Source: a virus (taxonomy: Duplodnaviria; Caudoviricetes). Taken from it: a DNA stretch of 53,810 nt. The stretch's first letter is position 1; each line of letters begins with the position of its first letter. The stretch lies in the IMG/VR virus record IMGVR_UViG_3300030099_000437, positions 1 through 53,810 of that record. One strand, written 5' to 3'. This document shows, one piece after another, positions 23,972-44,700 of this stretch. Position numbers and translations under genes: made by a program. The notes below the pieces were generated by a model. That model did not search any database, was not told the DNA's origin, and worked only from the letters and a program-made list of their open reading frames with translations.

Positions 23972-24429
23972 TATACTTTCCTAGCCATTCCTCCACCATA
24001 GAACATCCCAGACTTACGGTAGTCTACCATGCCACCCTTTTTCATAGATAGTCCAGTGCTAGGATTAACTTTTCTTCCTAGACCTCCCATACTCATTGAT
24101 AGACCAGTAGAAGGATTAATCTTTTTGTCATCCATCATGCCGCCCAATGCCATCTTCCTCTTTTTCACTGCTCCCCCCATATACATTTTCATCATTTTAC
24201 TCATGTAAGCCTTCGGATTTCTTTTATATTCTTTAGCTGCTTCTGGATTTATCTCCTCCAACTCTTTTAATTGAGAAGGAGTCATACTTGGAATTTTATC
24301 TCCAATATAATTTCCTTTACTGTCAAAAGAATCTACCCCAGTAAAGAAATCCAGAACCTTATGGACAAATTTTTCAAACCTAGATAGCTTTTTTCTAGCA
24401 GGTTTTTTACCTTTTTTAGTTTCAGCCAT
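23971..24429 (-). CDS. Basic protein with MxxGG repeats
   Basis: 152 aa; five MxxGG units and duplicated NPSTGLSM. Confidence 0.65.
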   Translation of the reverse strand: MAETKKGKKPARKKLSRFEKFVHKVLDFFTGVDSFDSKGNYIGDKIPSMTPSQLKELEEINPEAAKEYKRNPKAYMSKMMKMYMGGAVKKRKMALGGMMDDKKINPSTGLSMSMGGLGRKVNPSTGLSMKKGGMVDYRKSGMFYGGGMARKV

Positions 24430-24676
24430 AATTTTTCCTCTTCATATGGGGTTTATATACATCATTAGCATCAAGCATACCCTCTAAATACATAGCTCTC
24501 TCTACATGGTCTAGCGTATACTTAATTCCAGTGTCTAATCTTATCTTCTCTCTAACGTAGAATACATCAGAGCGTGGAATGTGGACTCTCCGCAGCTTAG
24601 ACTCGTCCTCATCAGCCAAAGCTTTATAAAATTCTTCTATCACATTATCACTAATGTACATTTTAGCTCTGGGCAT
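24422..24676 (-). CDS. Hypothetical protein, first gene of the late arm
   Basis: Track ORF starts 24724 but a promoter lies in that extension; ATG at 24676 (MPRAKMYISDNVIEEFY) preferred. Confidence 0.6.
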   Translation of the reverse strand: MPRAKMYISDNVIEEFYKALADEDESKLRRVHIPRSDVFYVREKIRLDTGIKYTLDHVERAMYLEGMLDANDVYKPHMKRKNYG

Positions 24677-24680
24677 GGTA

Positions 24681-24711
24681 CTAGTTATACTCCTAACACA
24701 TTCTTTGTCAA
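24681..24711 (-). promoter_or_regulatory. Late-arm promoter
   Basis: TTGACA-N16-TATAACTAG, same architecture as 8171..8200. Confidence 0.7.
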
Positions 24712-24740
24712 GAATAAACGACAAAAAATTAACTTCTATT

Positions 24741-24855: not shown

Positions 24856-25238
24856 GCCCCCTCCCTCTCTTTTTTCGTTACAGGTAGGTTTTTCAGGGTA
24901 AAATCACTGTGTTGCCGCTTAACACCCCCGGTATACATACAATATCCTCTCAGAGGCTTAAATTTAGCCACTGAGTAGGGGTAAATGTAATCCATATGGT
25001 AGACTGCCTGTAGTCCTACTCCCCCTCCTCAGAGGGGAAATATAAAGACCTACTGAATTTTACCATGCAGCAGCCTTACGCAGCAGTGTGCAGCAGCTAA
25101 ATGCCTAAAAAATAGGCATAATATTACAACTGCACAAAAAACAGGCAGTTATATACAGTGGTTAACACCCTAAATTACCCCTCTCTGGCAGAGTACGAGT
25201 ACGCATACGTACAGGGGTGGGGTGGCACTTGCCACGGT

Positions 25239-25288
25239 GTTCTCGTTTTGTTCTAATCCTGTCCTTAAATTGAGAACATTTAGTGAAC
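25239..25288. promoter_or_regulatory. Two alphaproteobacterial LexA (SOS) boxes
   Basis: GTTC-N7-GTTC at 25239-25253 and GAAC-N7-GAAC at 25274-25288. Confidence 0.7.
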
Positions 25289-25296
25289 AAATAGAG

Positions 25297-25386
25297 TAAG
25301 TCATTGTTTTTATTAAGTATTCATAACAATAATACATTATCAGTAATTTTTTTTGTCTTAAAAACTCAATAAAATCAGTAAGTTAT
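25297..25386. promoter_or_regulatory. IHF-like sites
   Basis: AATCAG-TAAG-TTA (plus, ~25373) and AAACAA-TGAC-TTA (minus, ~25297-25309) resemble WATCARNNNNTTR, with A-tracts. Confidence 0.4.
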
Positions 25387-25567
25387 CAAAAAGTTTGGTA
25401 TTTATGTATTTTTTTTGTTGCAATCTGTTTTTCGTTATGCCATTGTTTAGGAGTTCAGAAGACGGAACACCAGAACTAAACGGTTAAATGTCCAACTTGT
25501 TCTAACCTGAAGCACTGAACAGAATATGACTAAATGACTACCGCCTAAATAAAAAAGTTTTTTAATC

Positions 25568-25597
25568 TTGACTTTAATTTTAAAATAAGGTTAGACT
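25568..25597 (+). promoter_or_regulatory. Early promoter upstream of candidate ncRNA
   Basis: TTGACT-N18-TAGACT with A/T-tract UP-like element upstream. Confidence 0.65.
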
Positions 25598-25603
25598 ATA
25601 AAA

Positions 25604-25983
25604 CAAGTCTTGCGGATACTAGCAAGCCACCAAGAGCGGAATGTAAGTCTCATTGTCTGGGTGATATCAGACTAGGTTAACTCCTCTATTGCCGATAATG
25701 CTTAATTGCATGGGCTAACCTTAACGCTTGCCATATGTGAGTATTGGGTGTCTTAAAAGGGTGTAGAGTATCCACCAGAGCTACGGTCAATCTGTCTGGT
25801 GAGCCGAATGAGTAAGGTCAATGTGGCTACGCTTGTTGTCTGTTATTGCGTGGAATGTAAATCGCAGGAGTTTCTAGGCTAAGTCCAACCATTGTTGTCC
25901 TTTGGGTGAATCCATAAGCCCATAAAATATATCTTAATGGGGGAGTAGCTATGGTGACATAGGTGACAAGCTCCCCCAATAAG
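25604..25983 (+). ncRNA. Candidate large structured ncRNA (~380 nt), family unknown
   Basis: No listed ORF, raised GC, about ten helices including crossing pairings and a duplicated GGAATGTAA loop. Confidence 0.65.
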
Positions 25984-26292
25984 TTTTACTCAGTGATACC
26001 TCTAGGAAAGTAATGAGGTATACCTATGACAATTTCAAAAAAAGCTGAAGATTTTAATTTATTAGTAGTACGCAATATCGTTGACAATTTTTCTCGAAGA
26101 AATGACAACAAAAAAGGAGTACATTCTTTTATATATAAGCTAACGCATAAGAACTATAGGTGCAATGTAAAATCTGTTACCTATGGTGGGAAAACATACT
26201 TGAGAGGTCAATTCTTACCCAAAGTTTTTTGGGAATTAAGATAAGACTTTACAACAACAATTTTTTAATATAGAGGTATCACTAAGTAAAAC
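25983..26292. repeat. 22-bp inverted repeat enclosing ORF 26026..26244
   Basis: GTTTTACTCAGTGATACCTCTA (25983-26004) vs TAGAGGTATCACTAAGTAAAAC (26271-26292), 21/22 complementary. Confidence 0.85.
26026..26244 (+). CDS. Hypothetical basic protein (72 aa)
   Basis: GAGGT RBS at 26015, AT-rich. Confidence 0.55.
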   Translation: MTISKKAEDFNLLVVRNIVDNFSRRNDNKKGVHSFIYKLTHKNYRCNVKSVTYGGKTYLRGQFLPKVFWELR

Positions 26293-26307
26293 AATGAGAG
26301 GTGAAAT

Positions 26308-26931
26308 ATGATAGATAATATTATAGGTACATACTACCTATCTAAATCTGGGGAAAAGCTACATGGGTTTGCATGGTATCTTGACGCATACAAATCTTGT
26401 GTCGTTATCTCCAAGAGGTTTGGTGTACCATTAAAGGTGGTGGTGGGTGTATGCTCCGCACTATCTCCGAATAATAAATGGCATAAGAATATTATTGACA
26501 CTGAGAATATGGTGCTTGCCTATAAATCAGGCATACCATTGGATGAGGTCAAGGTGTCAACGTATAGCAATAATAAAGCAAAAGCTATTGAGATGCTTAT
26601 GCTACCCAAAGCTACTAAGCAAGACATAAGGGATATACTGTTTGGTAAATCTGGGCATAAGACTAGGGCATTTTTTGACTGCATATATGGGTGTAAGACG
26701 AACAAGGATACAGTATGTGTAGACGGACACGCTAAGTCTATCTATATGGGTGAAAAATTTGCCCTGAGTAGTAACAAAAGCAATATGACACCCAAACAAT
26801 ACTTGACCATATCACAAGCCTATATTGATGCGTGTGATGAGATAAACAAGCGAGAGGGTACAAGCTACCTACCCTATCAAATACAAGCTATAACATGGGT
26901 AGCTTGGAGGAGAATACATGGCATCACATAA
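26308..26931 (+). CDS. HhH DNA-glycosylase-like early protein (DUF7178-like)
   Basis: WY...SALSP..W..N, G.K..AF, VCVDGHA, Y...A, QAITW motif series. Confidence 0.6.
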   Translation: MIDNIIGTYYLSKSGEKLHGFAWYLDAYKSCVVISKRFGVPLKVVVGVCSALSPNNKWHKNIIDTENMVLAYKSGIPLDEVKVSTYSNNKAKAIEMLMLPKATKQDIRDILFGKSGHKTRAFFDCIYGCKTNKDTVCVDGHAKSIYMGEKFALSSNKSNMTPKQYLTISQAYIDACDEINKREGTSYLPYQIQAITWVAWRRIHGIT

Positions 26932-27184
26932 TAGAGAAATTAGAAATAGGATTAGGCTATCATTGGCAAGCTATGCCTACGAATACCATGATGATAGCCT
27001 GATGACTGACGCAGAATTTGACAAGCTATCAAGAGAGATAGACCCTAACGAAAAGACAGGCAATGAGTTGATAGATAGATTTTTTCGTGAAGAGTTTATG
27101 CCTGACTCTGGAATGTGGATTAGGAAACACCCTGAGTTGTGGAAGTTGGAGCATATTTATAAAACATTGAGAGGTAAAAAATGA
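26918..27184 (+). CDS. Stand-alone NAD-ligase domain Ia-like protein
   Basis: SYAYEYHDDSLMTDAEFDKLSREI resembles LigA Ia motif YY..D.P..SDAEYD.L..EL. Confidence 0.7.
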   Translation: MASHNREIRNRIRLSLASYAYEYHDDSLMTDAEFDKLSREIDPNEKTGNELIDRFFREEFMPDSGMWIRKHPELWKLEHIYKTLRGKK

Positions 27185-39601: not shown

Positions 39602-41496
39602 GTTTACCAACCGACTACCAAAACTTTATAGCAGTGTCACGCTATGCACGATGGCTTGATGAAGAGAACAGGAGAGAGACTTGGGATGAGACAGTGCAGA
39701 GATACGTTGACTATATGGCAGAGAAAGTCAAAGGCAGTCTACCTAAGGGTGAGATATATGATGCAATATACAACCTAGAAGTTATGCCATCTATGAGAGC
39801 CTTAATGACTGCAGGACCTGCACTTGAACGAGACAACACTGCAGGATATAACTGTAGCTATCTACCTGTCGATGACCCCAAAGCATTTGACGAGGCTATG
39901 TATATCCTGTTGTGCGGAACAGGTGTTGGCTTCTCTGTCGAGAGACAATACATAAGTAGACTACCAGACATTCCTGAGGATATGGAAGAGTGTGATACAG
40001 TTATTGAAGTTGTTGATAGTAAAGAAGGTTGGGCTAAGTCTTTACGTAAACTCATAGGACATCTGTACATGGGCGAGATACCATCGTGGGATGTCTCAAA
40101 GGTTAGACCTGCAGGTGCTAGACTGAAGATATTCGGTGGTAGAGCCAGTGGTCCTGAACCTCTCGTTGATTTATTTAACTTTACTGTGGCATTATTCAAG
40201 GCTAATGCAGGACGTAAACTGTCTAGCTACGACTGTCACAATCTAATGTGTAAGGTGGGAGAAGTTGTAGTATCTGGTGGAGTAAGACGGTCAGCAATGA
40301 TTAGTCTCTCCAATCTCTCTGACCAGAGAATGAGACACGCTAAGTCTGGTAAATGGTGGGAGACTGCACCACAGATGGCATTGTCTAACAACTCTGTAGC
40401 CTACACAGACAAGCCAGATGGTGAGACATTCCTCAGGGAGTGGCTCTCACTGGTTGAGTCTAAGTCAGGGGAGCGTGGGATATTCAATAGAGTATCCGCA
40501 AAGAAACAGGTTGCTAAGTATGGTAGGAGAAATCCTGACTATGACTTTGGGTGCAACCCATGCTCTGAGATTATCCTGCGCCCCTATCAATTCTGTAACC
40601 TCACGGAGGTTGTCATCAGAGAGAGTGATAGGTTTGATGACTTGAAACGTAAGGTAGTCCTAGCGACAATACTAGGTACTGCACAGGCTACATTAACTAA
40701 GTTCCCCTATCTCCGAAAGATTTGGAATACAAACACAGAGGAGGAGAGATTACTTGGTGTGTCTCTGACAGGTATCATGGATAATGAATTAACAAGTGGG
40801 AGAAAGAAAGGACTAGATAAAACTCTAGAATCTCTGAGAGAGATTGCAGTGGAGACAAACCGGGAATGGTCACAGATATTCCGAATACCACCATCTACTG
40901 CTATCACCTGTGTCAAGCCTAGTGGCACAGTGTCACAGTTAGTAGACTCTGCTAGTGGAATACATCCACGACACAGTAAGTATTACATCAGAACTGTACG
41001 AGGAGACAACAAAGACCCACTCACAAAGTTTATGATTGACAATGGTGTACCTAGTGAACCAGACTTTATGAAGCCTGATGGTCAGACTGTATTCAGTTTC
41101 CCCATGAAGTCTCCTCATACGTCAGTCATTAGACACGAAATGACAGCCATACAACAGCTAGAAATGTGGCTTACGTACCAGAGGTACTGGTGTGAACATA
41201 AACCCTCTGTAACAGTCTCTGTCAAGGACGATGAGTGGATGGAGGTAGGTGCATTTGTATTCAAACACTTTGATGAGATGTCAGGTGTGTCATTCTTGCC
41301 ACACTCAGACCACACCTATCAGCAAGCACCCTATCAGGACTGCACAGAGAAAGAGTATAATGCCATGCTAGACAAGTTTGTCTATGACATTAACTGGGAT
41401 AGCCTTGATGATTACGAGAAGGAAGATACGACTGCAGGAAGTCAGACGTTTGCTTGTAGTGGTGACACTTGTGAAATCGTAGATATAGGAGTATAG
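39598..41496 (+). CDS. nrdJ: Class II (adenosylcobalamin-dependent) ribonucleotide reductase
   Basis: YNCSY, GGVRRSA, NPCSEI, TCVKPSGTVS, C-terminal CSGDTC; no NrdB gene present. Confidence 0.9.
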   Translation: MSLPTDYQNFIAVSRYARWLDEENRRETWDETVQRYVDYMAEKVKGSLPKGEIYDAIYNLEVMPSMRALMTAGPALERDNTAGYNCSYLPVDDPKAFDEAMYILLCGTGVGFSVERQYISRLPDIPEDMEECDTVIEVVDSKEGWAKSLRKLIGHLYMGEIPSWDVSKVRPAGARLKIFGGRASGPEPLVDLFNFTVALFKANAGRKLSSYDCHNLMCKVGEVVVSGGVRRSAMISLSNLSDQRMRHAKSGKWWETAPQMALSNNSVAYTDKPDGETFLREWLSLVESKSGERGIFNRVSAKKQVAKYGRRNPDYDFGCNPCSEIILRPYQFCNLTEVVIRESDRFDDLKRKVVLATILGTAQATLTKFPYLRKIWNTNTEEERLLGVSLTGIMDNELTSGRKKGLDKTLESLREIAVETNREWSQIFRIPPSTAITCVKPSGTVSQLVDSASGIHPRHSKYYIRTVRGDNKDPLTKFMIDNGVPSEPDFMKPDGQTVFSFPMKSPHTSVIRHEMTAIQQLEMWLTYQRYWCEHKPSVTVSVKDDEWMEVGAFVFKHFDEMSGVSFLPHSDHTYQQAPYQDCTEKEYNAMLDKFVYDINWDSLDDYEKEDTTAGSQTFACSGDTCEIVDIGV

Positions 41497-41497
41497 A

Positions 41498-41704
41498 TTG
41501 ACAGTGATTAAACTAGAGAAAGAAGCAAAAGCATTTAGAAAGAAACAGACACCTAAGTCTCTCAAGCCACTAACATCTAGGAGATACCTTGCAGGTCAGG
41601 CACTTGCAGGGTTACTTGCTAGAGGTAAAGGTGCTGTAAATAAACATGATTTGAAAAGAGAAGCCTACGAGTGGGCAGACTATATGTTAGAAGATGACTA
41701 CTGA
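41498..41704 (+). CDS. Hypothetical protein, last gene of plus arm
   Basis: R.YLAGQALAGLLA...AY..AD.ML motif. Confidence 0.7.
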   Translation: MTVIKLEKEAKAFRKKQTPKSLKPLTSRRYLAGQALAGLLARGKGAVNKHDLKREAYEWADYMLEDDY

Positions 41705-44700
41705 TAGGCTAGGTTTTCTCTTAAAATAGAACCTGAAGGTTGAGGAAAGGTTAGTGTGTCGTAGTTATCCATAATAGTTTTTATGTATGCTAATATATCT
41801 GTTGCATTTTCTTTTTTCATTATATCATCAAACTCATCATCCGCACCAATTATATTACCCTGTCTTGCAACATTTAGTGCGTAGTTCATAGCGTCTTTAT
41901 CACCTATTGTTATATCTCTCAATATACTTAAAGATTTTGGAGAAGAGTTTCTTAGTACTTCCAGAGTCATTTCTCTTAATTTAGGTTTAATTATTTCATT
42001 TATTATTTTTACCTTAACATTTAAATCTCTTTGAAAATAGTTAGGGTATTTTTCTAATGTTTCCATAGCAATTTGTTCAAAGATAGGAGCTGCAATATTA
42101 TCCATAGCATTCTTAACTATGGGGTCTCCTCCCCACCTATTAAACTTCCAAGTAGGAATACCTGCAGCATTTAACATTTTTATACCTATGTTAGAGTGAG
42201 GTGAACGTCTAGCACCAAATAACATTTTACTTACGTTTGGAACTCTATCTTTACCCTCTCCTAATGTGGCTCTAGTTTCTTCCGTTGCTGCACTAGACAG
42301 TTCTGTGGGTAGAAGAGCGTTAATATATTTAAAGGCTGAATTGGTTCTTTCATTGCCCTGTCTTAGGTCAGGTGTAGCACCATCAAATCTTACCATATTA
42401 GCTACAACATTAACAGGTTCAAGAAACCTCGTACCTCCCTGAAATATTCTAGCCCCTGCATCTGCTGTAAGACCAATAATGAAATTAAAAAGGTCTAACA
42501 AAGAATCTACTTGTGTTTCTCCATCTACAAAAGAATAAAATTGTTCTCCTATATAACTCGTTACTTGGTCAACTTGTCTAACTGCAGAACCAGTAAGCTC
42601 TGCTCCAAGTCTAGCTTGTAACCCTGTAGGTATTTGCGTTACATCAAAATGTTCGATAATATATTCATATATTTCGTCAGGATTACGTTCAGCTAAATCC
42701 TTTTTTAAATTTCTACCATCTCCACTAATTGCATGAGCAAGCATTTGAGCAATTAGGTCTGCCTGATTAAGCGGCCAATCATAAGTAATATCTACTAAAT
42801 CCCCCTCTGAATTTCTATTTTCATTATAAGCATCACCCCTAGAAACTTTTTCTACAGCAGAATTTTCACCGTAGAATGTTCTCCACAATACGTATGACCA
42901 ACCTACAATCATTTTAGAGGTAGCTTCAGTAAAATCTTGTGTCTCAGGGTCTAAGTCTCTACCCAGAGCTTTTCTAGTCATATATCTTGCAGCATTTATC
43001 CCAGTAACATCACCAAAAGTAGCGGCAACAGTATTCATAAAACTACCAAAAGGTATAATAAAACCTCCTGCAGTTCGATTAGTAACATTTTCTACAAGAA
43101 TAGCACCCTCTCTAAATAAACTGTTACCTGCTCTCCCCTGTAGTTGTGACCAGTTGACTGAAGCAGTCTGTCTCATTGTTCTCCATGCAGACTTTTGTAA
43201 AACCTCATCCATAAATTTAGGACTAGTTATTTCAATTCCTACATCTGGTCTAGAGAAAAATTGCGTAGGAGACTCTCCATATACCTTCATAATATTTTGA
43301 TTCATATTACCACTGAAAGCCCACAACTTAGAATATTCATCTTGAAGTCTCATAAGTGAAATAGTTTGCGCTCCTTTTGTAATACTATCAAATCCTGCAT
43401 ATATAGGATTATTTTTCTTGTCCAGATTAAATAAAGCTAAACTATCAAATGCTCCTCCATCTCCAGACACATCTCTAAATAATCTCTCTTTGACTTTAGG
43501 ATTTAAGTCAAGGATAAGTCTTGCATATCCTACATCCATCTCTGGATTTAGTACATTAAAACCTTTTCTAGCAGCACCAAAGAAATTACCATATGCCTGT
43601 CTAGCATGGTACTCTGCTTTCTTTGCATTACCTCCTAAGGTTTTATAAAATGCAGACAAAGTTATGTTACCAACAGAAGTTGTTATATCTCCTGCCACAT
43701 CTAATAAATTTAACGCACCAAAACCTTTTAAGTTAGAACCTGTGGTAGCAGGGTGTGAAGTAAGAAGTCTTTTATATATAGACAAAGCCCACTGAAATCT
43801 CTTTGGACTAATGTCCGTTTCTATCTGACCTGCCATAACTTTCATGGTGGTATTCATATTTTTAGTTTCTTTATGTATATTATTAGCCATTGCTTGTGAT
43901 ATTTGTAAAGTACGTCCTGCATTACTCTCAATATTAACATATCTAGCACTCAAGGCTTCTACTGTATAAGGTAGATTAAGACTTTTTCCTGTTCTAAATT
44001 CATATTCTTTCATAATTTTTTCTACAGTAAAATTACTTAGATATTTCATTGACTCTGCCATTACACCAGTTATCTTACTTTCATCAATCATATCCTGATG
44101 AACAACAAAACCTGCTTCTTTTAATACTCTTAAGTAACCTTTAGTTAATATGTTACCTTCATTATCAACTGTGTCTAAAAAAAACTCTCTAAAAAATTGT
44201 TGTGTGTGAGCTAAATCATTTGCAAAAGCGTCAGGATTATTTCCACCTATAGACTCTTTTAATGTGTTATAAGCCTCACCCCTAATCTTTTCCCATTTTT
44301 TTAAATTTTCGTTAAAACCTCCGGGAAGTTGTTTCCATTCTTTAATAGGTTTACGATAACCAAAATGTGACTCAACTTTATAGGCTATATCATCAGCATT
44401 TGCACTAACTCTTTCATCAACTATTTGCTGTGCATTCTTTAATCCTTCCCTAACCTTATTATCTATATCAATATAACCAAGCCAACTACTTTTTATAGGC
44501 TCTTTCTTTCGTAACTCTCTTAAACCAAAGTTAGTTATTGTTACTGCAGGAATAAATAAGGATGCGAAAGCGGCTATAGTAGTTTGAGATTTAGATATTT
44601 CTTCTTGATTACCCACATTAATTAAATTTAACTGCGACAATAAATCTAATGTTACATTCTGAGCTAGGTCTGGTAATGTAAATGCAGCAGTAGTACCAAG

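What the first reader, a model, noticed from the sequence alone, without database searches (positions are those of the whole stretch)
25634..25866. Duplicated 12-nt loop motif YGGAATGTAART on two different stems
Seen: GAG-CGGAATGTAAGT-CTC (25634-25651) and TGCG-TGGAATGTAAAT-CGCA (25847-25866). The loops have the same length and a 9-nt identical core, closed by stems of different sequence, which is internal covariation. Inference: a repeated tertiary module (T-loop-like UGUAA) or twin protein-binding sites; the GGA-in-loop also recalls CsrA/RsmA-type sponge sites.
Basis: partly seen in the sequence, partly recalled or inferred. Interest (0 to 1): 0.7.

Follow-up and report, generated by a model that had tools for sequence, protein, structure and literature searches.

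The report
Twin-loop hairpins in phage leader RNA
Two short hairpins with the same nine-letter loop sit in an undescribed structured non-coding RNA at the head of a marine phage's early genes, but it is still open whether the pair works as a functional module or is a coincidence.

Summary
Both motifs are at the stated coordinates. They lie in about 380 nt of non-coding sequence between a sigma70-like promoter (25568-25597) and a GC-rich terminator-like hairpin (25939-25977). This is the divergent early control region of a 53.8-kb HMO-2011-type marine podophage. There is no Rfam match. The RNA body is real and structured. A roughly 95%-identical environmental variant shows three double-compensated base pairs, and 9 of 10 substitutions in predicted pairs keep pairing. 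The body is also a swappable cassette: the closest relative keeps the promoter and hairpin but carries a different 170-nt insert.

For the twin hairpins the evidence is mixed. In favour, the two 18-mers differ at four positions that form two compensated pairs, and the variant lacks hairpin 1 as a clean 23-nt unit while keeping loop 2. Against, both hairpins are thermodynamically negligible. The same kind of twin-hairpin coincidence occurs at 9 places in this window. No relative carries the motif.

The CsrA-sponge reading is not supported. The T-loop reading cannot be tested here. My best guess is duplicated recognition hairpins in an early leader RNA, with confidence 0.45.

The parts
25568..25597 (+). 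sigma70-like early promoter, TTGACT-18 nt-TAGACT
   Evidence: The match alone is not significant (4 found, 5.1 expected). However, the site is identical in L118, and an equivalent TTGAC(T/G)-17/18-TA(C/G)... site sits in the same position in L119, L231, L233 and L234.
25605..25987 (+). predicted non-coding leader RNA or sRNA of about 380 nt. The body 25602-25931 is the part that is swapped between relatives.
   Evidence: There is no + strand ORF of 40 aa or more here. GC is 0.42-0.47 against 0.20-0.34 in the flanks. No Rfam family matches. A natural variant shows compensatory changes. The ends are inferred from the promoter and the hairpin, not measured.
25609..25626 (+). 5'-proximal hairpin CUUGC-GGAUACUA-GCAAG
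   Evidence: -6.3 kcal/mol, and 13 of 200 shuffles fold as well. L118, L233 and L234 have hairpins at the same place with a UGGAUU loop on different stems. The variant changes two loop bases, G25615A and C25619T.
25634..25651 (+). motif copy 1: GAGC-GGAAUGUAA-G(U)CUC
   Evidence: This copy is absent from the X13 variant, which has a 23-nt deletion at 25628. The cut can slide by 2 nt because of a flanking CA.
25655..25672 (+). hairpin GUCUGG-GUGAUA-UCAGAC
   Evidence: Pair probability is 0.8. The fold is -7.1 kcal/mol with z -2.4. In the variant U56/A71 becomes C/G, G59/C68 becomes A/U, and G60.U67 becomes G-C.
25847..25866 (+). motif copy 2: UGCGU-GGAAUGUAA-A(U)CGCA
   Evidence: In the X13 variant the loop is unchanged and C25865T turns G-C into G.U on the + strand.
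25939..25977 (+). GC-rich terminator-like hairpin GGGGGAG...CUCCCCC with an inner GUGA-loop hairpin, followed by AAUAAGUUUUAC
   Evidence: -22.5 kcal/mol, z -4.4, and 0 of 200 shuffles fold as well. It is conserved in L118. In the variant A25944/U25972 becomes U/A. The terminator scan did not call it.
25983..26004 (+). left arm of a 22-nt inverted repeat. It overlaps the strand that can pair with the small ORF's Shine-Dalgarno sequence.
   Evidence: I1: 95% complementary to 26271-26292. The same arrangement, with other sequences, is found in L118, L119, L230 and L231.
26026..26244 (+). first early ORF, 72 aa and very basic. It is variable between relatives.
   Evidence: It has no Pfam or PHROG family. 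In the X13 variant it is replaced by sequence less than 80% alike (joint 26030 to 26242).
26153..26187 (+). strong hairpin inside the small ORF whose loop holds a near-copy, GUGCAAUGUAAA
   Evidence: D7: 11 of 12 identical to 25850-25861.: -11.7 kcal/mol, and 2 of 200 shuffles fold as well. The covariance model scores it at only 10.7 bits, E 2.7.
26271..26292 (+). right arm of the inverted repeat, just upstream of the DUF7178 gene's ribosome-binding site
26308..26931 (+). DUF7178 gene, used as the anchor to fetch relatives
   Evidence: (PF23802, E 7.5e-33).

Best explanation
The two copies are a duplicated small hairpin module. Each has a 4-5-bp stem with a bulged U and presents the same 9-nt loop, GGAAUGUAA. 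Both lie inside a structured non-coding RNA of about 380 nt.

This RNA is transcribed rightward by the host RNA polymerase from the conserved early promoter of an HMO-2011-type marine podophage. It ends at, or is read through, a conserved GC-rich terminator-like hairpin in front of the first early gene.

Shown: the region is non-coding. Its helices are under selection. The promoter and terminal hairpin are conserved, while the RNA body between them is exchanged like a cassette between close relatives.

Inferred: the two loops are single-stranded recognition elements for one common partner. That partner could be a protein, with the small, very basic, equally variable first early protein as the obvious candidate, as with lambda N and nut. 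Or it could be a complementary RNA. Either would modulate read-through of the hairpin or translation of the early genes.

Copy 1 would be an accessory second site, because a natural variant does without it.
For: The region is non-coding, GC-richer than its flanks, and matches no Rfam family.

The promoter and GC hairpin are conserved in L118, whose DUF7178 is 98% identical. The 330 nt between them is replaced there by an unrelated 170 nt. The same architecture, with other RNAs, is found in L119, L230, L231, L233 and L234. The L119/L230/L231 RNA has 14 of 83 predicted pairs with compensatory changes.

The X13 variant has 16 substitutions in 25600-25990. Ten of them fall in pairs of the window's minimum-energy fold. 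Nine keep pairing, including three pairs changed on both sides. The G.U pairs are standard pairs only on the + strand.

For the module itself: the four differences between the 18-mers form two compensated pairs and the 9-nt loop is untouched. Only 43 of 200000 simulated sets of four random substitutions gave that pattern. The 23-nt indel removes exactly hairpin 1. That deletion would strip 17 pairs from the rival long-range helix. Loop 2 is invariant in the variant. A third near-copy sits in a strong hairpin loop 300 nt downstream.

The stretch stands in 20 of 24 listed runs from 10 studies, with 7 rows flagged as a possible source. One holder is a metatranscriptome library, which is no proof of transcription.
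Against: Local hairpins 1 and 2 have pair probabilities of about 0 in the full-length fold. In isolation they are no more stable than shuffles. The whole RNA folds no better than shuffles: z -0.69, and 24 of 100 shuffles fold as well.

The twin-hairpin pattern class occurs 9 times in the real window, 8 of them in coding sequence. The compensation argument is post hoc and rests on only two sequences. The column-shuffle control reached the observed score in 110 of 500 trials.

None of 83 related loci has a homologue of this RNA or the twin motif. No other IMG/VR contig holds any of three anchors. Of the two JGI metagenome stretches holding a fourth anchor, one (L344) is identical to the window and the other shares only the 19-nt anchor.

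One copy is dispensable in nature. In X13 the RNA is kept while the small ORF allele is replaced, which argues against a strict RNA-protein specificity pair.

The partner is unknown. A fold of the small protein was unusable, with pLDDT 54.5. Transcript ends have not been measured.
Confidence: 0.45

Rival explanations
1. Coincidence. The RNA is real, but the repeated 9-mer and its short flanking complementarity are chance. The two motif regions are not hairpins. They are strands of a long imperfect helix (25608-25648 with 25831-25869) that closes the RNA's central domain, or they are simply unstructured.
For: The long-range pairs have probabilities of 0.8-1.0 and the local hairpins about 0. The isolated hairpins are not better than shuffles. 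A 9-mer repeat appears in 3427 of 20000 shuffles of the element. The real window has 9 equally good twin-hairpin loci. G25615A and C25865T also keep pairing in the long-range model.
Against: The natural 23-nt deletion removes the 5' strand of 17 of those pairs with no matching change on the 3' strand. This holds only if the two X13 contigs come from one strain. The four differences between the copies are all compensated and the loop is untouched. The energy model has no discriminating power here, with z -0.69.
Confidence: 0.3
2. Tertiary-structure modules. The loops fold as GNRA (GUAA closed by A-U and U-R) or as T-loop-like (UGUAA) elements. They dock into receptors to fold the large RNA or to join copies of it.
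For: GUAA is flanked in both copies by bases that can pair: A-U, then U-A or U.G. The terminal hairpin keeps a GUGA loop on a covarying inner stem in the window and in L118. That GNRA and T-loop modules are common in large RNAs is recalled, not tested.
Against: The inner pairs have probability 0.03 or less. A core tertiary contact should not be deletable, yet hairpin 1 is absent in a variant. No receptor was identified. The RNAs of relatives lack the loops.
Confidence: 0.1
3. DNA-level sites. The repeated GGAATGTAA are binding sites on double-stranded DNA for a regulator or replication initiator in the divergent control region.
For: The location is between divergent operons. There are three AATGTAA in direct orientation within 525 bp, out of 7 on the + strand of the window.
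Against: The sites lie downstream of the promoter, inside the transcribed and swappable body. The compensated flanks and the G.U change point to RNA. There are only 2-3 copies, at irregular spacings of 214 and 310 bp.
Confidence: 0.05
4. CsrA/RsmA-type sponge. GGA-bearing loops titrate a CsrA-family protein.
For: GGA sits in three putative loops, at 25614, 25638 and 25852.
Against: GGA is not enriched: 5 against 3.7 expected. Two of the five are lost in the variant. The loops are 9-12 nt, not the usual 5-7 nt (the usual size is recalled). The phage has no CsrA gene. No Rfam Csr/Rsm model matches. From recall, the known hosts of this phage group are Alphaproteobacteria, which mostly lack CsrA.
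Confidence: 0.02
5. CRISPR-repeat mimic. Copy 2's UGGAAUGUAAAU equals the 3'-terminal 12 nt of a widespread class of CRISPR repeats, the part that becomes the crRNA 5' handle. It could act as a decoy for Cas proteins, as an RNA anti-CRISPR.
For: Repeats ending in ...TGGAATGTAAAT were seen in arrays on IMG/VR contigs and in many genomes.
Against: Only 12 of about 29 nt match. These hits were found because the search used the motif itself.
Confidence: 0.02

Closest known systems
Lambda-type nut sites (boxB hairpins) with N protein, and HK022 put RNA (recalled, not tested here)
   Same: Small hairpins with a fixed loop sit in the leader just downstream of a phage early promoter and upstream of a terminator. 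The first gene downstream encodes a small, basic and highly variable protein. The leader also holds a structure that covers that gene's ribosome-binding site.
   Different: The loop is 9 nt, not a 5-nt GNRA-like loop. Both copies are on one transcript, not one per operon. No boxA was identified. The small protein has no recognisable arginine-rich motif or family. Antitermination has not been shown.
PeSL cassettes of T4-type phages (Arbiol et al. 2010, PMC2839356, abstract read; Comeau et al. 2014, PMC4122927, search listing only)
   Same: A conserved sigma70-like early promoter and a stem-loop bracket sequence that is swapped between otherwise nearly identical phages.
   Different: What is swapped here is a structured non-coding RNA together with a small ORF. 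The promoter and stem-loop lie on either side of the insert and do not form one composite unit. PeSLs explain the turnover, not the twin loops.
Multi-hairpin regulatory RNAs with repeated identical loops, such as S. aureus RNAIII C-rich loops (recalled)
   Same: A regulatory RNA several hundred nt long presents the same short loop sequence on several different stems.
   Different: No complementary target was found. TTACATTCC is absent from the + strand of the window, and only a 7-nt complement lies at 26121-26127. The host is unknown.
CsrB/RsmY/RsmZ sponges
   Same: GGA in hairpin loops.
   Different: GGA is not enriched and not conserved. There is no Rfam match and no phage CsrA.

Membership tests
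Any Rfam 15 family | Covariance-model score at or above the gathering threshold | tested here: not met
   The window gave 0 matches at gathering. At E up to 10 over 25100-26300 there were 4 matches of 9.7-20.5 bits against cut-offs of 55-60. Six relatives' loci gave 0 matches.
CsrA/RsmA sponge RNA | Many GGA motifs, enriched over background, mostly in hairpin loops | tested here: not met
   There are 5 GGA in 391 nt against 3.7 expected from the window's own rate.
CsrA/RsmA sponge RNA | GGA motifs conserved among homologues | tested here: not met
   The X13 variant loses two of the five, through G25615A and through deletion of copy 1.
CsrA/RsmA sponge RNA | A CsrA-family protein present in the system | tested here: inconclusive
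   PF02599 has no match in the phage record at E up to 1. The host is unknown.
T-loop module | Five-nt U..A motif with a reverse-Hoogsteen pair stacked on a helix and an intercalated base | not testable with these tools
   UGUAA fits the minimal sequence pattern, which is recalled. The geometry needs a structure or probing.
GNRA-tetraloop hairpin | GNRA closed by a helix | tested here: inconclusive
   GUAA can be closed by A-U plus U-A (copy 2) or U.G (copy 1). The predicted probability of those pairs is 0.03 or less.
RNA anti-CRISPR (solitary repeat unit) | Near full-length likeness to a CRISPR repeat of the host | tested here: not met
   Only the last 12 of about 29 nt of the repeats seen match. 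The taxa with such arrays are not marine hosts of this phage group.
Lambda nut/boxB | boxA plus a 15-nt boxB hairpin with a 5-nt loop, and a cognate N protein | not tested
   The resemblance is in position and logic only. The loop is 9 nt, and no N-like family was found for the small ORF.
PeSL cassette | Conserved early promoter and stem-loop at the borders of insertions or replacements between close relatives | tested here: met
   Between the window and L118, identity resumes at the promoter (up to 25601) and at the GC hairpin (from 25932), with unrelated sequence between them. The composite promoter-next-to-stem-loop layout of true PeSLs is not present.

The most novel reading that the evidence does not exclude
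HMO-2011-type marine phages carry, at the head of their early operon, a hypervariable structured leader RNA of 170-380 nt with no Rfam family. In this reading the GGAAUGUAA hairpins are the binding sites of the adjacent small basic early protein. The RNA hairpins and protein would form an N/nut-like specificity pair that controls read-through of the conserved terminator hairpin. The pair would be exchanged between phages by recombination at the conserved promoter and hairpin.
Probability: 0.1. Interest if true: 0.65.

Novelty: new member of a known kind. Interest (0 to 1): 0.35.

Why it matters
HMO-2011-type phages are among the most abundant phages in the sea (recalled), and how they time their early genes without their own RNA polymerase is unknown. 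A structured leader RNA that is conserved in position, rapidly exchanged in sequence, and supported by compensatory changes both in this phage and in its relatives gives a concrete handle on that early control. The twin hairpins are the simplest part of it to mutate and test. If they turn out to be coincidental, the leader RNA cassette itself remains a candidate new RNA class.

Tried and rejected
Pattern scans.
- One search used the wrong gap (150-180; the window's own gap is 205). None of its 116 stretches resembled the region.
A later BLAST of the element against all 227 loci then held, those among them, gave nothing longer than 21 nt at E 0.52 or worse.
- One search used a tighter pattern and gave 89 stretches. 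The spans I printed were CRISPR arrays, WNVS-type protein repeats and one conserved stretch with stops in all three forward frames. A BLAST of the 34 newly fetched loci found nothing longer than 18 nt at E 0.28 or worse.

Other searches.
- The phage collection gave no match by blastn.
- Anchors from the RNA found no other IMG/VR contig. In JGI metagenomes a 19-nt anchor found two stretches: one, L344, is 100% identical to the window, and the other shares only the anchor.
- A covariance model of the two hairpins gave no further significant match. In the window the next best was 24571-24594, at E 0.099, antisense to an ORF. The near-copy at 26157-26183 scored E 2.7. In 83 related loci the best hit was UGCGUGGAAUGUCGCA inside an ORF of L230 and L231, at E 0.12. 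It reads A-W-N-V there, and nothing around it is similar.
- I tested whether the RNA is a decayed DUF7178 gene. Only a 12-aa match at E 0.06 appeared, so I rejected this.

Cross-family motif. GCRAAUGUAG in the L119 family looked like a shared motif. There it is the base of the terminator stem, so I dropped it.

Small ORF. The ESM Atlas gave no usable hit. The AlphaFold model had pLDDT 54.5 and was not used.

Sequencing runs. X12, an RNA library, has no contig on 25400-25599 or 25759-26320. X9 and X10 cover only parts. These holes prove nothing. The contig starts at 25600 and 25602 may be assembly-graph branch points and not RNA ends.

The convergent end of the operons (41400-41800) gave no useful terminator for comparison.

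Literature. 'HMO-2011' with 'non-coding RNA' found 1 paper, unrelated by its title and abstract start. 'AUGUAA' with 'hairpin loop' and 'phage' found 0 papers. Supplements could not be read and are not expected to bear on this.

Full report
WHAT IS THERE

The window is a whole IMG/VR virus record of 53,810 bases, estimated 97% complete. Its portal protein is 72% identical to those of roseophages CRP-13 and CRP-9 and 64.5% identical to that of Puniceispirillum phage HMO-2011. It is therefore an HMO-2011-type marine podophage. Overall GC is 37.8%.

Genes run leftward up to 25337 and rightward from 26026, so the finding lies in the divergent control region. GGAATGTAA occurs three times in the window, at 25638, 25852 and 34008, all on the + strand. 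The expected count is 0.66, and 2 of 100 shuffles reached three.

ANATOMY OF THE REGION

On the + strand, in order:
- A sigma70-like site, TTGACT-18-TAGACT, at 25568-25597. As a bare consensus match it is not significant: 4 were found against 5.1 expected.
- About 330 nt without any + strand ORF of 40 aa or more. GC is 0.42-0.47 here against 0.20-0.34 in the flanks.
- A strong GC hairpin at 25939-25977: -22.5 kcal/mol, z -4.4, and 0 of 200 shuffles fold as well. It is followed by AAUAAGUUUUAC.
- A 22-nt inverted repeat, 25983-26004 and 26271-26292, 95% complementary. Its arms flank a 72-aa, very basic ORF at 26026-26244.
- A DUF7178 gene at 26308-26931.

No Rfam family matches at gathering. 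The four matches at E up to 10 score 9.7-20.5 bits against cut-offs of 55-60. There is no tRNA or tmRNA.

RELATIVES: A CONSERVED FRAME WITH A SWAPPED BODY

I fetched 83 loci through the DUF7178 protein. In the closest, L118, DUF7178 is 98% identical. DNA identity with the window runs through the promoter up to about 25601 and resumes at about 25932 with the GC hairpin. Between these points L118 has an unrelated 170 nt, and it also has a different small ORF.

L119, L230 and L231 (DUF7178 64-65% identical) and L233 and L234 (51-56%) show the same frame: promoter, 250-330 nt of non-coding sequence, terminator-like hairpin. In L119, L230 and L231 a hairpin over the ribosome-binding site, a small ORF and 24-25-nt inverted repeats of different sequence follow. 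Each group has its own RNA.

The L119/L230/L231 RNA has 83 predicted pairs, 14 of them with compensatory changes. None of these loci matches Rfam. None of the 83 loci contains a homologue of the window's RNA. The best BLAST hits are 22-32 nt at E 0.03 or worse, and nhmmer found nothing.

THE RNA IS REAL AND STRUCTURED

The 336-nt body stands in 20 of 24 listed public runs from 10 studies. Seven rows are flagged as possible sources. I laid four runs.
- X9 gave a 246-nt contig and X12, an RNA library, a 159-nt contig (25600-25758). Both are identical to the window.
- X10 differs by one letter in 266 nt.
- X13, an estuary sample, carries a diverged form on two contigs, at depths 8.9 and 7.2.

In X13, within 25600-25990 there are 16 substitutions, two 1-nt insertions and one 23-nt deletion. 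Ten substitutions fall in pairs of the window's minimum-energy fold and nine keep the pair. Three pairs changed on both sides:
- U25656/A25671 to C/G.
- G25659/C25668 to A/U.
- A25944/U25972 to U/A.

G25660.U25667 becomes G-C. The G.U pairs are standard pairs only on the + strand, which agrees with the promoter's direction.

Energy alone says nothing. The full RNA has z -0.69, and 24 of 100 shuffles fold as well. The presence of a contig in an RNA library does not show transcription. The contig starts at 25600 and 25602 may be assembly branch points, because the upstream sequence is shared with strains that carry another insert.

THE TWIN HAIRPINS: EVIDENCE FOR

Aligned as 18-mers (25634-25651 and 25848-25865), the copies are identical at 14 positions. 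The four differences form two compensated pairs, A-U/C-G and C-G/U-A. The second pair closes the loop, which becomes the identical 9-mer GGAAUGUAA with a bulged U on its 3' side. In a simple model of four random substitutions, the pattern 'loop untouched and all four pairs kept' arose in 43 of 200,000 trials.

The X13 deletion starts at 25628, and the cut can slide by two because of a flanking CA. It removes hairpin 1 as a unit. Loop 2 is unchanged, and its stem changes only from G-C to G.U. Whole-hairpin indels are what one expects of a peripheral module.

The same deletion would strip 17 pairs from the long-range helix that the energy model prefers. This holds if the two X13 contigs come from one strain, which I cannot show.

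A third near-copy, GUGCAAUGUAAA (11 of 12 identical), sits in the loop of a strong hairpin at 26153-26187 inside the small ORF: -11.7 kcal/mol, and 2 of 200 shuffles fold as well. Three of the seven + strand AATGTAA of the window lie within 525 nt.

THE TWIN HAIRPINS: EVIDENCE AGAINST

In the full-length ensemble the local stems have probabilities of about 0. The motif regions pair with each other's flanks at 0.8-1.0. In isolation, hairpin 1 (-2.3 kcal/mol) is matched by 116 of 200 shuffles and hairpin 2 (-3.5 kcal/mol) by 43 of 200.

Shuffles of the element gave the twin pattern in only 30 of 20,000 cases. Applied to the real window, however, the same detector finds 9 loci, this one and 8 in coding sequence, against 0.91 per shuffled window. 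One of the eight has two different 4-bp stems. The pattern class is therefore common in real sequence, and the shuffle p-value overstates the case.

With two sequences the column-shuffle control reached the observed covariation in 110 of 500 trials. The compensation and third-copy arguments are post hoc. The hairpin covariance model finds nothing significant in 83 related loci, where the best hit is E 0.12 inside an ORF. In the window it scores the third copy at E 2.7.

The CsrA sponge is not supported. There are 5 GGA against 3.7 expected. Two are lost in X13. The phage has no CsrA gene, and no Csr/Rsm model matches.

The T-loop idea cannot be tested with these tools. An alternative GNRA reading, AU-GUAA-AU/GU, is possible on paper but gets a pair probability of 0.03 or less.

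'Twin protein-binding sites' remains the most economical functional reading, but the partner is unknown.

AN UNPLANNED OBSERVATION

The pattern scans returned CRISPR arrays whose repeats end in ...TGGAATGTAAAT, which is identical to copy 2's 12 nt. Only 12 of about 29 nt match. The arrays are almost all in Bacillota, Fusobacteria and other anaerobes. The hits were obtained by searching with the motif itself. I treat this as coincidence, with about 2% for a decoy role.

MOST LIKELY MECHANISM

Shown:
- There is a non-coding RNA body whose helices are under selection.
- It sits between a conserved host-type promoter and a conserved hairpin.
- It is exchanged as a cassette between close relatives, in the way PeSL cassettes are exchanged in T4-type phages (PMC2839356, abstract read).

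Inferred:
- The RNA is the leader of the early operon. When it is terminated at the hairpin, it is a free RNA of about 380 nt.
- The GGAAUGUAA hairpins present one recognition sequence twice to a common partner, which tunes read-through or translation of the first early genes. The position and logic recall lambda nut/N (recalled, not tested).
- The adjacent small basic protein is the obvious candidate partner. In X13, however, the RNA is kept while that ORF is replaced by sequence less than 80% alike, which weakens a strict pairing.

VERDICT

The sequence observation is correct. It led to a real and apparently undescribed structured leader RNA. The specific claim of a functional duplicated loop module is plausible but unproven, and I put it at about 0.45. 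About 0.3 goes to coincidence. The finding as given is of modest interest. The leader-RNA cassette around it is the more interesting object.

Noticed in passing
window 25983-26004 and 26271-26292; L118 2505-2526/2796-2817; L119 2064-2088/2356-2380; L230 1553-1577/1852-1876; L231 1264-1287/1555-1578: A 22-25-nt inverted repeat flanks the small first early ORF in every close relative. Its sequence differs between phage groups but stays complementary. The left arm overlaps the strand that can also pair with the ORF's Shine-Dalgarno sequence. This suggests a long-range RNA helix, either a processing site or a translational switch.
   Followed up: partly
L119 1778-2072, L230 1270-1560, L231 935-1270; L233 about 1790-2040, L234 about 2205-2460: The relatives carry other non-coding leader RNAs at the same position. 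The L119 group has 83 predicted pairs, 14 of them with compensatory changes. L233 and L234 share a further RNA. Both groups have an inner hairpin with a CCAA loop in the terminal stem. None matches Rfam. They are candidate new RNA families.
   Followed up: partly
window 25609-26; L118 about 2296-2311; L233 about 1798-1813; L234 about 2217-2232: The first hairpin after the predicted start has a UGGAUU loop on three different stems in L118, L233 and L234. In the window the loop is GGAUACUA, and the X13 variant changes it.
   Followed up: no
window 26026-26244: In the X13 variant the small ORF is replaced by sequence of about the same length that is less than 80% alike, while both flanks are kept (joint 26030 to 26242). 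L118 has yet another allele. The ORF looks hypervariable.
   Followed up: partly
L230 2273-2288 and L231 2304-2319: UGCGUGGAAUGUCGCA is copy 2's stem and half its loop without AAAU. It lies inside an 78-87-aa ORF just upstream of DUF7178 and reads A-W-N-V there. The model gives E 0.12, and nothing around it is similar.
   Followed up: partly
window 24571-24594 (+ strand): AGCGUGGAAUGU...CGCA lies antisense to the ORF at 24422-24724. The model gives E 0.099. The shared 11-mer is at chance level for this window.
   Followed up: partly
window 25714-25738 (- strand): A match of 22-25 nt at 87-91% identity to a conserved part of the DUF7178 genes of other phages (L251, L258, L263, L272, L274, L295, L305, L308), at E 0.03. 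At protein level it is only 12 aa at E 0.06. It is probably chance.
   Followed up: partly
window 26918-27184: An 88-aa early protein consists of a stand-alone DNA-ligase Ia NAD+-binding domain (PF22745, E 2.6e-11).
   Followed up: no
L150, L121, L197 and other IMG/VR loci; L346 onwards: IMG/VR 'viral' contigs from isolate genomes, and many Bacillota and Fusobacteria genomes, carry CRISPR arrays whose repeats end in GGAATGTAAAT. Giant-virus MAG contigs carry WNVS-type protein repeats with the same letters.
   Followed up: partly
window 2492/2663, 4737/5007, 11108/11438, 14365/14419, 33668/34017, 42877/43177, 46262/46510, 49471/49836: Eight further pairs of a shared 9-mer on same-register stems of 3 bp or more within 400 nt, all in coding sequence. 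They show how often this pattern arises without any evident function.
   Followed up: yes
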